This document shows, piece after piece, positions 29,238 to 31,006 of a stretch of 64,000 nt of DNA. Position numbers and translations under genes: made by a program. Location: contig CAKPYH010000002.1 of assembly GCA_934202735.1 (NCBI GenBank), forward strand, positions 42,945-106,944. Direction: 5' to 3'. Every line of letters begins with the position of its first letter. Within the stretch, counting starts at the first letter, position 1. Below the pieces are notes generated by a model. The model was not told where the DNA came from. It did no database searches and worked only from the letters and a program-made list of their open reading frames with translations. Source of the DNA: an uncultured Alphaproteobacteria bacterium (GTDB lineage: Bacteria; Pseudomonadota; Alphaproteobacteria; CAAHEQ01; UBA3637).

Positions 29238-29266
29238 GCAATCGCGTACATTTTCTTGTATGCTTG
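29238..29266 (+). promoter_or_regulatory. Candidate sigma70 promoter (TTGCAA-17-TATGCT) for the 29300-31006 gene pair
   Basis: Sequence pattern only. Confidence 0.3.
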
Positions 29267-29299
29267 GCCCGTTAAAGTTTTTTATGAAAGGAAACGATT

Positions 29300-30004
29300 A
29301 TGGATTCAAAGTATCAATGCACGCCGGCGATTGAGCACATGTGCCCCGTTGCCAAAGGCGTTCATCATAAAAGTGCCCCCATTCCCGAAGAAGGTAAATG
29401 GGTCAGCGCACAACATATCAGCGATATTTCCGGTTTGACACACGGGTGTGGATGCTGTGCCCCGCAACAAGGTACATGCAAACTGACCTTGAATGTCAAA
29501 GACGGCGTGATTCAAGAAGCTTTGGTGGAAACCATCGGGTGTTCGGGTATGACGCATTCGGCGGCAATGGCGGCTGAAATTTTACCGGGTAAAACAATTT
29601 TGGAAGCCTTGAATACCGATTTGGTATGCGATGCCATCAATGTGGCTATGCGTGAATTATTTTTACAAATTGTCTATGGTCGGACGCAAACGGCGTTTTC
29701 GGAAAACGGTTTGCCGGTCGGGGCAGGCATGGAAGACCTGGGGAAGGGGTTGCGTTCCATGGTCGGGACGATGTATTCCACAACGGTCAAAGGCCCCCGC
29801 TATTTGGAAATGACGGAAGGATATGTGTTGGAACAAGGCTTGGATGAAAATAATGAAATCATCGGCTACAAGTTTGTTCATGTCGGCAAAATGCTGGAAG
29901 CGATTCGTAAAGGTGAATCGCCTGAAGAAGCCTTCAAAAAGAATGTCAAAACCTATGGCCGCTTTGATGAAGCCGTCAAGAAAATTGATCCGAGAAAGGA
30001 GTAA
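29300..30004 (+). CDS. NifU/IscU-like Fe-S scaffold-fold protein with C-terminal extension
   Basis: 234 aa; GCGCCAP...TIGCSGMTHSAAMAAEILPGKTILEA matches IscU cysteine/scaffold pattern (C...C...C + GKT..EA). Confidence 0.5.
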   Translation: MDSKYQCTPAIEHMCPVAKGVHHKSAPIPEEGKWVSAQHISDISGLTHGCGCCAPQQGTCKLTLNVKDGVIQEALVETIGCSGMTHSAAMAAEILPGKTILEALNTDLVCDAINVAMRELFLQIVYGRTQTAFSENGLPVGAGMEDLGKGLRSMVGTMYSTTVKGPRYLEMTEGYVLEQGLDENNEIIGYKFVHVGKMLEAIRKGESPEEAFKKNVKTYGRFDEAVKKIDPRKE

Positions 30005-30007
30005 GTT

Positions 30008-31006
30008 ATGGTAGAATTTGAAGGAAAAGAACGCCGGATTGAAAAAATCAACAAAGTGTTGGCCGAATACGGTTTGAAAGATTTGGAAGAAGCGAAAGCC
30101 TTGTGCGATTCAAAAGGTATTGATGTGGCCAAGTTGGTCAAAGGCATTCAACCGATCGCGTTTGAAAATGCCGTTTGGGCCTATACGATGGGTGCGGCGT
30201 TGGCTATTAAAACCGGTGTCAAAACGGCTGCTGATGCGGCTAAAATGCTGGGTGTCGGGTTGCAGGCTTTCTGTGTGCCCGGATCGGTCGCGGACCAACG
30301 TAAAGTGGGCTTGGGCCATGGGAACCTGGCGGCTATGTTATTGACCGAAGATACCAAGTGTTTCTGTTTCTTGGCCGGGCATGAATCCTTTGCGGCAGCG
30401 GAAGGGGCGATCGGTATTGCTCGTTCAGCCAATAAAGTGCGTAAAGAACCCCTGCGGGTTATTTTGAACGGTCTGGGTAAAGATGCGGCCTATATTATTT
30501 CCCGTATCAACGGATTTACTTTTGTGGAAACACAGTATGACTATTATACCGGCGAGTTAAAAACCGTTTCGGAAAAAGCTTTCTCCAACGGCGATAAAGC
30601 CAAAGTCAAGTGCTATGGTGCCGATGATGTGAGTGAAGGTGTGGCCATTATGATTAAAGAGGGTGTTGATGTTTCTATTACGGGGAACTCAACCAATCCG
30701 ACACGTTTCCAACATCCGGTGGCCGGAACGTACAAAAAATGGGCAACCGAAAACGGACGTAAGTATTTCTCGGTGGCTTCGGGCGGTGGTACGGGACGGA
30801 CACTGCACCCCGACAACGTGGCGGCCGGTCCGGCATCTTACGGGATGACCGATACGATGGGGCGCATGCATTCTGATGCGCAGTTTGCGGGATCTTCTTC
30901 CGTGCCGGCTCATGTGGAAATGATGGGCTTGATCGGTATGGGCAATAACCCGATGGTAGGGGCCAGTGTGGCTGTTGCCGTTGCGGTGGAAGAAGCCATG
31001 AAATAA
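30008..31006 (+). CDS. GGGtGRT-motif family protein (uncharacterised conserved family)
   Basis: 332 aa containing the exact SGGGTGRT motif; separated from upstream gene by 3 nt. Confidence 0.65.
   Translation: MVEFEGKERRIEKINKVLAEYGLKDLEEAKALCDSKGIDVAKLVKGIQPIAFENAVWAYTMGAALAIKTGVKTAADAAKMLGVGLQAFCVPGSVADQRKVGLGHGNLAAMLLTEDTKCFCFLAGHESFAAAEGAIGIARSANKVRKEPLRVILNGLGKDAAYIISRINGFTFVETQYDYYTGELKTVSEKAFSNGDKAKVKCYGADDVSEGVAIMIKEGVDVSITGNSTNPTRFQHPVAGTYKKWATENGRKYFSVASGGGTGRTLHPDNVAAGPASYGMTDTMGRMHSDAQFAGSSSVPAHVEMMGLIGMGNNPMVGASVAVAVAVEEAMK

What the first reader, a model, noticed from the sequence alone, without database searches (positions are those of the whole stretch)
29238..31006. NifU/IscU-like plus GGGtGRT conserved gene pair of unknown function behind a strong promoter
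Two genes 3 bp apart. The first has an IscU-like three-cysteine scaffold pattern (GCGCCAP...GCSGMTHSAAMAAEIL..GKT..EA) plus a ~120-aa extension. The second carries the exact SGGGTGRT motif that names an uncharacterised protein family. The pair appears to be a conserved module with no assigned biochemistry; the Fe-S-scaffold-like partner suggests a metallocofactor or radical-chemistry role. In this genome it sits among ferredoxin-linked redox genes (PFOR, a 2x[4Fe-4S] ferredoxin, an FTR-like protein), which may hint at its physiological context.
Basis: partly seen in the sequence, partly recalled or inferred. Interest (0 to 1): 0.6.

Follow-up and report, generated by a model that had tools for sequence, protein, structure and literature searches.

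The report
Conserved IscU-like plus GGGtGRT gene pair
This is a real two-gene operon found in many gut anaerobes, pairing a rewired relative of the iron-sulfur scaffold IscU with a "GGGtGRT" protein; the pairing is already in the literature, its biochemistry is still unknown, and this copy is an ordinary member.

Summary
Gene A (29300-30004, 234 aa) and gene B (30008-31006, 332 aa) lie 3 nt apart. A Shine-Dalgarno site for B sits inside the end of A, and a hairpin terminator follows B.

- **B** is a full-length Pfam PF14057 GGGtGRT protein (E 3e-196).
- **A** is a true but divergent IscU homologue and fails the NifU_N/IscU family cut-offs. Only one canonical IscU cysteine is positionally kept. 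The family instead has four invariant cysteines (C53, C60, C81, C110).
- **Pairing:** in 79 of 79 informative loci from at least seven phyla, A lies directly upstream of B on the same strand. No other neighbour is conserved, and no cysteine desulfurase is nearby.
- **Constraint:** both proteins are under very strong constraint (76-92% identity across phyla, dN/dS about 0.03).
- **Structure:** no solved structure or PDB fold matches B.
- **Literature:** the pair (BT0173-BT0174 in B. thetaiotaomicron) is abundant, goes down in low iron, and has no known function.

The "strong promoter" and the "ferredoxin neighbourhood" readings are not supported.

Best reading (inferred): an obligate heteromeric iron-sulfur protein in which the IscU fold holds a permanent 4-Cys cluster for the GGGtGRT partner. 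It is a new member of a known but uncharacterised kind.

The parts
29236..29264 (+). Promoter-like element: TTGCAA (-35), 17-nt spacer, TATGCT (-10)
   Evidence: Read directly. It matches 8 of 12 consensus positions and was not reported by the scan, which needs 9 of 12. The TTTCTTG...ACATTTTnTTGTATGCT core is conserved in the closest relative L001. Function is inferred, not shown.
29287..29292 (+). Shine-Dalgarno-like AAAGGA, 7 nt before the ATG of gene A
   Evidence: Read directly. Comparable GGAG-type sites precede A in most of 77 related loci.
29300..30004 (+). Gene A: 234-aa IscU-fold protein. N-terminal extension (1-45), divergent IscU core (about 45-126), conserved Gly-rich linker and C-terminal domain (127-234). 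Invariant C53, C60, C81, C110 and H48.
   Evidence: ORF. NifU_N below threshold and NCBIfam IscU/NifU/SufU far below cut-offs. PDB IscU E 5e-5 by profile. hhalign against E. coli IscU 89%. The top 40 Foldseek hits are all IscU/SufU, on a low-confidence model. Cysteine conservation.
29996..30001 (+). Shine-Dalgarno AAGGAG for gene B, inside the last codons of gene A, 6 nt before the ATG
   Evidence: Read directly. It implies coupled translation. In the divergent locus L088 the two genes overlap by 11 nt.
30008..31006 (+). Gene B: 332-aa GGGtGRT protein. Helical N-domain (7-112), alpha/beta domain (118-226) containing the GLGKDAA loop (155-161), and an ultra-conserved Gly/Met/His-rich segment (227-311) with SGGGTGRT at 258-265.
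   Evidence: PF14057 full length, E 3e-196. Conservation. AF2 model pLDDT 70.7, pTM 0.76, residues 227-311 below 50. No PDB sequence or fold match.
31026..31058 (+). Intrinsic-terminator-like hairpin: CCCCCGGG, 8-nt loop, CCCGGGGG, then TTTAATTTT. It lies between B and the convergent APH-family gene.
   Evidence: RNA fold gives -23.5 kcal/mol, z -3.3, with 0 of 200 shuffles as stable. The simple scan missed it.

Best explanation
A and B are the two subunits of one obligate, stoichiometrically co-expressed cytoplasmic iron-sulfur protein of strict anaerobes. A is an IscU-fold protein whose labile assembly site has been rebuilt into a four-cysteine site (C53, C60, C81, C110). That site is predicted to hold a permanent Fe-S cluster rather than build clusters for export. 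B has no invariant cysteine. It contributes a helical domain, a Rossmann-like alpha/beta domain with a GxGxxA loop, and an almost invariant Gly/Met/His/Asp-rich segment that includes SGGGTGRT. This is most likely the substrate, nucleotide or metal site. The conserved linker of A (127-167) and the conserved segment of B (227-311) are both poorly predicted in the monomer models, and I infer they fold against each other. What is shown: homology, invariant residues, strict synteny, coupled gene arrangement and purifying selection. What comes from the literature on orthologues: high abundance, and lower expression in low iron. What is inferred: cluster binding, complex formation and catalytic role. 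The reaction is unknown.
For: Synteny in 79 of 79 loci across Clostridia, Bacteroidales, Elusimicrobia, Desulfobulbaceae, Spirochaetes, Planctomycetia and Alphaproteobacteria. It is kept in the only divergent lineage, at 53% identity, where the genes overlap by 11 nt. The SD for B lies inside A with a 3-nt gap. A and B pairwise distances correlate, r = 0.67. dN/dS is about 0.03 with saturated dS. Four invariant Cys in A, none in B. The canonical labile-site residues Cys37 and Asp39 are replaced, and LPPVK/His105 are absent (plus the sequence). No IscS-type cysteine desulfurase lies within 10 kb in 80 loci or anywhere in the 64-kb window. No assembly-type or any other neighbour is conserved. 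Orthologues drop 11- to 13-fold in low iron in B. thetaiotaomicron (PMC10434189). In C. pasteurianum the GGGtGRT and adjacent NifU-related proteins are among those listed as changing with iron availability (PMC5395762; direction not verified). They are highly expressed in vivo in many gut taxa (PMC11204068). Transposon mutants grow normally in vitro (bioRxiv 10.64898/2026.04.10.717545).
Against: There is no direct evidence that A binds a cluster; four cysteines could bind Zn, as in SufU. Both AF2 models were built from shallow alignments (19-23 sequences, mostly 80% or more identical to the query). The low pLDDT of the conserved segments may therefore be technical. The Rossmann/nucleotide reading of B rests on a motif and on non-significant Foldseek hits. 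The profile test against USP proteins failed. Iron-dependent expression fits a scaffold or a storage role equally well.
Confidence: 0.4

Rival explanations
1. A dedicated Fe-S cluster assembly, repair or delivery system. A is still a working scaffold or carrier that builds or receives clusters. In anaerobes it might use free sulfide, so no desulfurase gene is needed nearby. B is its accessory factor, for example a nucleotide-dependent release or transfer factor, or an iron donor.
For: A is a true IscU homologue and IscU-fold protein. Annotation sources call it a scaffold. Expression follows iron supply. COG0822 NifU homologues make up about 1% of spectra in the core human gut metaproteome (PMC3261163). 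The Gly-rich loops in B could bind a nucleotide.
Against: The canonical labile site (Cys37, Asp39, His105) and the chaperone-docking LPPVK motif are missing (and the sequence). Four invariant Cys suggest full, stable ligation. No cysteine desulfurase, chaperone or A-type carrier is nearby in any of 80 loci. A fails every curated scaffold model by a wide margin. Very high abundance and EF-Tu-like conservation are unusual for an accessory assembly factor.
Confidence: 0.3
2. An iron, sulfide or iron-sulfur buffer, or a stress-protection protein. It would be made in bulk when iron is plentiful and switched off to spare iron, without a defined catalytic reaction.
For: It is abundant, lower in low iron, and dispensable in vitro. 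It is reported alongside rubrerythrins among commonly expressed proteins of gut anaerobes.
Against: Extreme residue-level conservation over the full 332 and 234 aa (mean column identity 83% and 79%), with many invariant His, Asp, Glu, Arg and Lys, looks like an active site and an interface, not a storage matrix. Stoichiometry is one small 4-Cys site per roughly 62 kDa (calculated from the two sequences). There are no repeats or cage-forming features.
Confidence: 0.12
3. A component of sugar-phosphate or glycolytic control: an Fe-S enzyme or sensor acting on a phosphorylated central metabolite.
For: Transposon insertions in BT0173-4 came out of the same screen as pfkA and raise Roc about 2-fold in glucose. 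In the single divergent locus L088 the pair lies in a same-strand gene cluster that includes a His_Phos_1 phosphatase/mutase and has an ApgM-type phosphoglycerate mutase upstream. The Gly-rich loops could bind phosphate.
Against: The effect is only 2-fold and could be indirect, through iron or redox state. The L088 context is a single locus. No glycolytic neighbour recurs in 80 loci: pyruvate kinase appears in 4, and other families no more often.
Confidence: 0.1
4. Two unrelated genes that happen to be adjacent in this genome.
For: None beyond the lack of direct interaction data.
Against: Adjacency in 79 of 79 loci with fixed order and strand across phyla, correlated divergence, and coupled translation signals.
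Confidence: 0.01

Closest known systems
BT0174 (annotated NifU) and BT0173 (GGGtGRT protein) of Bacteroides thetaiotaomicron, and F502_05017 and F502_05012 of Clostridium pasteurianum
   Same: The same two families sit next to each other. The 80 related loci, two of them Bacteroidales, are 76-92% (B) and 67-93% (A) identical to the window proteins. The Bacteroides pair falls in low iron; the C. pasteurianum pair changes with iron availability (direction not verified).
   Different: The window copy comes from an uncultured gut Alphaproteobacterium. Its expression and regulation were not measured. None of these pairs has an assigned biochemical function.
IscU / NifU N-terminal domain / SufU Fe-S scaffold proteins (Pfam PF01592; PDB 4eb5, 3lvl, 6w1d)
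   Same: Homologous core of about 50-70 residues and the same fold. The GC(S/G)G cysteine equivalent to E. coli Cys63 is kept, and so is the GKT..EAL helix.
   Different: A scores below all curated cut-offs. Cys37 and Asp39 are replaced. There is no LPPVK or His105. Four invariant Cys sit at new positions. A has about 45 extra N-terminal and 108 extra C-terminal residues. It has no desulfurase partner gene and always a GGGtGRT partner.
Pfam PF14057 GGGtGRT family (function unknown)
   Same: Gene B is a full-length, typical member with the name-giving motif.
   Different: Nothing distinguishes it. The family is essentially one tight orthologous group: only one truly divergent full-length representative (53% identity) appeared among the best 150 cluster representatives listed (of 1953 hits at E <= 0.001) in a library of 1.84 billion cluster representatives.
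Universal stress protein / adenine-nucleotide alpha-hydrolase-like Rossmann domains
   Same: These gave the weak best Foldseek hits for the alpha/beta domain of B (probability 0.15-0.54). Both have a Gly-rich loop after a beta strand.
   Different: The hits are not significant (E at least 0.13). hhalign against E. coli UspF/UspG gives 0.3% probability. There is no Pfam Usp signal. This is a lead only.

Membership tests
Pfam PF14057 GGGtGRT | Full-length match to the family HMM above the gathering score | tested here: met
   651.3 bits against a cut-off of 27; residues 4-330 match profile positions 1-327 of 327.
Pfam PF14057 GGGtGRT | Conserved GGGTGRT sequence motif and a length of about 330 aa | tested here: met
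   SGGGTGRT at residues 258-265, 332 aa in total. The motif is invariant in 26 aligned members, including the 53%-identical P0266.
NifU_N / IscU scaffold (PF01592, TIGR01999, TIGR03419, TIGR01994) | Score at or above the curated family cut-off | tested here: not met
   Pfam 20.1 against 22. NCBIfam 26 against 187.9, 21.8 against 192.4, and 19.4 against 92.5.
NifU_N / IscU scaffold | IscU fold and detectable homology of the core | tested here: met
   Profile against PDB IscU E 5e-5. hhalign against E. coli IscU 89%, E 2e-6. The top 40 Foldseek PDB hits are all IscU/SufU at probability 0.92-1.0, though the model has a mean pLDDT of only 50.
NifU_N / IscU scaffold | Three canonical cluster ligands (E. 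coli Cys37, Cys63, Cys106) plus the labile Asp39/His105 | tested here: not met
   C81 aligns with Cys63. Extrapolating the alignment, which starts at IscU residue 41, upstream without gaps puts Gln56/57 and Gly58 at the positions of Cys37 and Asp39. There is no His before C110. C110 lies at the start of the last helix and may stand in for Cys106, but it is not aligned. Invariant cysteines are C53, C60, C81 and C110.
NifU_N / IscU scaffold | LPPVK motif for HscA/Hsp70 docking (ISC-type IscU) | tested here: not met
   No LPPVK or similar motif occurs in the 234-aa sequence (read directly).
NifU_N / IscU scaffold | Genomic partnership with a cysteine desulfurase (IscS, NifS or SufS) | tested here: not met
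   tblastn with E. coli IscS finds nothing at E up to 1e-3 in the 80 loci (10 kb on each side) or in the 64-kb window.
NifU_N / IscU scaffold | Transient Fe-S cluster assembly and transfer activity | not testable with these tools
   This needs anaerobic reconstitution and transfer assays.
Conserved IscU-like + GGGtGRT module (BT0174-BT0173 type) | A homologue directly upstream of the GGGtGRT gene, same strand, short gap | tested here: met
   The window gap is 3 nt. 79 of 79 informative loci have gaps of 7-48 nt. In L088 the genes overlap by 11 nt.
Universal stress protein / AANH-like nucleotide-binding domain (considered for B) | Significant fold or profile similarity to USP domains | tested here: not met
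   Foldseek best USP hit E 0.13, probability 0.44. hhalign 0.3%. No Pfam Usp hit at E up to 10. Power was limited by a two-sequence USP profile and a partly low-confidence model.

The most novel reading that the evidence does not exclude
The pair is a previously unrecognised type of two-subunit Fe-S enzyme. It would be among the most abundant and most conserved proteins of fermentative gut anaerobes. The IscU scaffold fold has been recruited as a permanent four-cysteine cluster subunit. The GGGtGRT subunit, which has no detectable relative among solved structures, carries a new active site acting in central carbon or redox metabolism.
Probability: 0.3. Interest if true: 0.75.

Novelty: new member of a known kind. 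Interest (0 to 1): 0.4.

Why it matters
GGGtGRT proteins and their IscU-like partners are reported as highly expressed in chicken-gut anaerobes and are detected in rumen and human-gut metaproteomes, and they are conserved at an EF-Tu-like level across phyla. Yet papers from 2024-2026 still call the function unknown. Knowing what the pair does would fill a gap in models of anaerobic gut metabolism and iron economy. It would also show a new use of the IscU fold. This particular window adds no new biology beyond one more orthologue, in a gut Alphaproteobacterium. The useful output of this analysis is a sharper description of the family:
- a four-cysteine site instead of the canonical scaffold site;
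- no desulfurase partner gene;
- a free-standing bicistronic module;
- no structural relative for B.

Tried and rejected
- **Sequence and profile search of the PDB for B.** Nothing found.
- **Pfam scan of three fragments of B and of the C-terminal domain of A at E up to 10.** Only GGGtGRT itself was found.
- **USP / adenine-nucleotide hydrolase idea for B.** hhalign against E. coli UspF/UspG gave 0.3%. Rejected as unsupported.
- **MoCF_biosynth (TGGTG motif) and B12-binding-domain resemblances.** These were considered from memory only. No Pfam signal supports them, and they were not pursued.
- **Rosetta-stone fusions.** The long 'representatives' (P0241, P0250, P0269, P0312, P0317, P0242, P0245) are assembly chimeras, duplications or frameshifts, not real fusions.
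- **Riboswitch or leader RNA.** Rfam finds only two tRNAs in the window.
- **Shared operator upstream of the operon.** No inverted repeat is common to the 77 upstream regions. One clade-specific site was found.
- **Conserved neighbours as functional clues.** None found.
- **Literature.** No paper assigns a function.
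Full report
**What is in the sequence**

The window holds two + strand ORFs: gene A at 29300..30004 (234 aa) and gene B at 30008..31006 (332 aa). The stop codon of A (TAA, 30002-30004) is 3 nt from the ATG of B. An AAGGAG Shine-Dalgarno sequence for B lies at 29996-30001, inside the last codons of A.

Upstream of A there is an AAAGGA site 7 nt before the ATG. There is also one promoter-like element: TTGCAA (29236-29241), 17 nt, TATGCT (29259-29264). It matches only 8 of 12 consensus positions, so the scan, which needs 9 of 12, did not report it. 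Its core is conserved in the nearest relative L001. It is a plausible promoter but not a demonstrably strong one.

Downstream of B, a GC-rich hairpin (31026-31049) followed by TTTAATTTT folds at -23.5 kcal/mol. None of 200 shuffles is as stable. It separates B from a convergent phosphotransferase (APH family) gene. The unit is therefore a self-contained bicistronic operon.

**Identity of gene B**

B matches Pfam PF14057 (GGGtGRT) over the whole model, at 651 bits and E 3e-196. It carries SGGGTGRT at residues 258-265. NCBIfam has no model for it.

The family is very compact. A search of 1.84 billion cluster representatives returned 1953 hits. Of the best 150 listed, those I inspected are fragments, frameshifts or assembly chimeras, plus the main cluster and a single divergent full-length member, P0266, at 53% identity.

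Homologues from Clostridia, Bacteroidales, Elusimicrobia, Desulfobulbaceae, Spirochaetes, Planctomycetia and Alphaproteobacteria are 76-92% identical to the window protein. This is not recent transfer. Against the closest relative, synonymous sites are saturated (dS 1.5-1.8) while dN is 0.05, giving dN/dS of about 0.03. Against an Elusimicrobia copy, pS is 0.76 and dN is 0.11.

No cysteine is invariant in B. C89 and C118 are lost in P0266, and C120 varies. Many His, Asp, Glu, Lys, Arg and Gly residues are invariant.

**Identity of gene A**

A is only weakly recognisable:
- Pfam NifU_N scores 20.1 bits, under the cut-off of 22.
- NCBIfam NifU, IscU and SufU models score 19-26 bits against cut-offs of 92-192.

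The homology is nevertheless real:
- The PDB search hits IscU/NifU chains at E 5e-4 with the single sequence and 5e-5 with a family profile.
- hhalign against E. coli IscU gives 89% probability and E 2e-6 over A 60-108 against IscU 41-93.
- The AF2 model is poor (mean pLDDT 50). Even so, its 40 best Foldseek matches in the PDB are all IscU or SufU chains.

The metal site is not the canonical one. In the alignments only C81 (GCSG) corresponds to a canonical ligand, E. coli Cys63. Canonical Cys37 and Asp39 fall on Gln56/57 and Gly58. The LPPVK-His105-Cys106 segment is missing.

Across 79 sequences (the window protein plus 78 homologues from the related loci), the invariant cysteines are C53, C60, C81 and C110, together with H48. 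H23 and H86 are invariant in the main clade only. The same four cysteines and H48 are kept in the partner of the divergent P0266. C110 sits at the start of the last helix of the IscU-like core. It may be the structural equivalent of Cys106, but I could not show this.

A also has about 45 extra residues at the N terminus and about 108 at the C terminus. These include a highly conserved Gly-rich stretch (127-167) that the monomer model does not fold.

**The pair is an obligate module**

- In all 79 loci that include upstream DNA, an A homologue lies directly upstream on the same strand. The gap is 7-48 nt in tblastn coordinates. The 80th locus is cut 22 nt before B.
- In the divergent lineage (L088) the genes overlap by 11 nt.
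- Pairwise distances of A and B correlate, r = 0.67.

Nothing else is conserved around them:
- No other gene family occurs in more than 8 of 80 loci within 10 kb. Those that recur are TyrRS, SecA, YigZ, RecX and similar housekeeping genes.
- The 125 immediately flanking genes carry 153 different Pfam families, none in more than 4 loci.
- No IscS-type cysteine desulfurase lies within 10 kb in any locus or anywhere in the window.

PFOR ends 5.4 kb upstream. The FTR-like ORF is 2.6 kb upstream on the other strand. The 2x[4Fe-4S] ferredoxin is 22 kb away, near position 7400. None of these recurs elsewhere.

**Structure of B**

The AF2 model has mean pLDDT 70.7 and pTM 0.76. It shows three parts:
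- a seven-helix N-terminal domain (7-112);
- an alpha/beta domain (118-226);
- a final helix (313-331).

The most conserved part, 227-311, which contains the GGGTGRT motif, scores below 50. The alignment was shallow (19 sequences, mostly at least 87% identical), so this may be technical.

Foldseek against the PDB gave no hit below E 0.001. The best weak hits were universal stress proteins and NAD-binding domains. In the alpha/beta domain, the segment LRVILNGLGKDAAYIISRINGFTFVE reads like a beta-GxGxxA-alpha-beta-acid dinucleotide-binding fingerprint. That is my reading of the sequence and the predicted secondary structure, not a tested result. A profile comparison with E. coli UspF/UspG gave 0.3% probability.

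**What the literature says**

The pair is already known as a pair, but it is uncharacterised.
- In B. thetaiotaomicron, BT0173 (GGGtGRT) and BT0174 (annotated NifU) fall 11- to 13-fold in iron deficiency (PMC10434189).
- In C. pasteurianum, F502_05012 (GGGtGRT) and the adjacent F502_05017 (NifU-related) appear among the proteins whose abundance changes with iron availability; I did not read the column headings, so the direction is not verified (PMC5395762).
[quoted passage not shown] They appear in rumen metaproteomes (PMC7035244).
- One is the antigen of a Segatella copri-specific monoclonal antibody. The authors of that paper state that its function is unclear (PMC12078515).
- Transposon insertions in BT0173-4 grow normally in glucose minimal medium. 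They raise Roc about 2-fold, and they came from the same screen as pfkA (bioRxiv 10.64898/2026.04.10.717545).
- COG0822 NifU homologues account for about 1% of spectra in the core human gut metaproteome (PMC3261163). That figure does not separate this subfamily from true scaffolds.

**Most likely mechanism**

I read the pair as one heteromeric iron-sulfur protein (confidence 0.4).

A keeps the IscU fold but has lost the features that make IscU a transient scaffold: the labile Asp/His ligand, the chaperone-docking motif and the desulfurase partner. It has gained a complete four-cysteine set, which is what stable clusters have.

B has no cysteine ligands. It has the conserved polar and glycine-rich residues expected of a substrate, nucleotide or metal site.

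Strict synteny, coupled translation signals, correlated divergence and very strong purifying selection across the full length of both proteins fit two subunits that must fit each other. Lower expression in low iron, reported for the B. thetaiotaomicron orthologues, and high abundance fit an iron-containing protein of core anaerobic metabolism that is shut down to spare iron.

Cluster binding, complex formation and catalysis are all inferred. The reaction is unknown.

**Rival explanations**

- A dedicated Fe-S assembly, repair or delivery system (0.3). This is favoured by the homology of A. It is disfavoured by the missing scaffold features and the missing assembly neighbours.
- An iron-sulfur buffer or stress protein (0.12).
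- A role in sugar-phosphate metabolism or sensing (0.1). The support is only the 2-fold Roc phenotype and a single divergent locus (L088), where the pair lies in a same-strand gene cluster that includes a His_Phos_1 enzyme and has an ApgM-type mutase upstream.
- Chance adjacency, which is excluded.

**Verdict**

It is wrong on the canonical three-cysteine pattern, the strong promoter and the meaning of the neighbourhood.

This copy, from an uncultured host-associated Alphaproteobacterium, is a new member of a known but uncharacterised kind. The host association is suggested by a T4SS coupling protein, ankyrin-repeat proteins and PFOR in the window. A 100%-identical protein is already in public MAG data.

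Interest is moderate. The family is a worthwhile experimental target, but this window adds no new feature to it.

Noticed in passing
L088:2572-8580 (contig carrying the divergent GGGtGRT P0266): The only truly divergent lineage (53% identity) keeps the A-B pair, with an 11-nt overlap. The pair lies in a same-strand gene cluster with an ApgM-type cofactor-independent phosphoglycerate mutase (about 600 nt further upstream), a His_Phos_1 phosphatase/mutase, and two proteins with no Pfam match (304 and 326 aa). It is a single-locus hint towards phosphorylated metabolites.
   Followed up: partly
L032, L050, L052, L072, L079 (about 55-100 nt upstream of gene A); a degenerate copy in L065: Erysipelotrichaceae-type loci share an inverted repeat, AGGTGA-N6-TCACCT, just downstream of the -10 element. 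It looks like a CRP/FNR-family or similar operator, or a 5'-UTR hairpin. It is absent from the other clades and from the window.
   Followed up: partly
window 30678-31112 (-); L062:9845-10906 (-) and about 30 other loci: Long antisense ORFs (up to 353 aa) run through GGGtGRT genes in 30 of 80 loci. In my greedy ORF filter they even displaced the real gene. This is most likely a side effect of the strongly constrained codon composition rather than a real gene.
   Followed up: no
window 32062-34260 (-), 34270-35268 (-), 37717-38973 (+), 46882-47688 (+): The window holds a VirD4/TraG-type type IV coupling protein, a pentapeptide-repeat protein and two ankyrin-repeat proteins, beside housekeeping genes and PFOR. 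This suggests a host-associated, anaerobic Alphaproteobacterium with effector-like proteins.
   Followed up: partly
window 16408-19857 (+): A 1149-aa three-domain fusion of an MFS transporter, an acyltransferase and an AMP-binding enzyme. The architecture resembles an LplT-Aas lysophospholipid recycling system fused into one chain.
   Followed up: no
window 26424-26651 (-): A 75-aa Cys-rich ORF (CGGHCPC..CPC..CHC) just passes the Pfam ferredoxin-thioredoxin reductase beta-chain cut-off (23.4 against 22 bits). It matches only about 30 profile positions of the 106-position model, so it is a truncated FTR-like mini-protein.
   Followed up: no
P0241, P0242, P0245, P0250, P0269, P0312, P0317, P0319, P0334, P0350 (50%-identity cluster representatives): Many 'representative' proteins that match GGGtGRT are assembly chimeras (fused to an ABC ATPase, Tex or SusD), internal duplications or frameshifted reads. 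In this ultra-conserved family, the 50% clustering mostly surfaces artefacts.
   Followed up: yes
flanks of the pair in 4 of the 80 loci (L001-L080; the individual loci were not identified): A phage-integrase-family gene directly flanks the A-B pair in 4 loci. This is a weak hint that the module sometimes travels on mobile DNA.
   Followed up: no
gene A model, residues about 170-234: The C-terminal domain of A gave a weak Foldseek match to the C-terminal domain of lipoate-protein ligase (3r07_C, probability 0.95, 64 columns; also 5iby). The model confidence is low, so this is only a lead.
   Followed up: no
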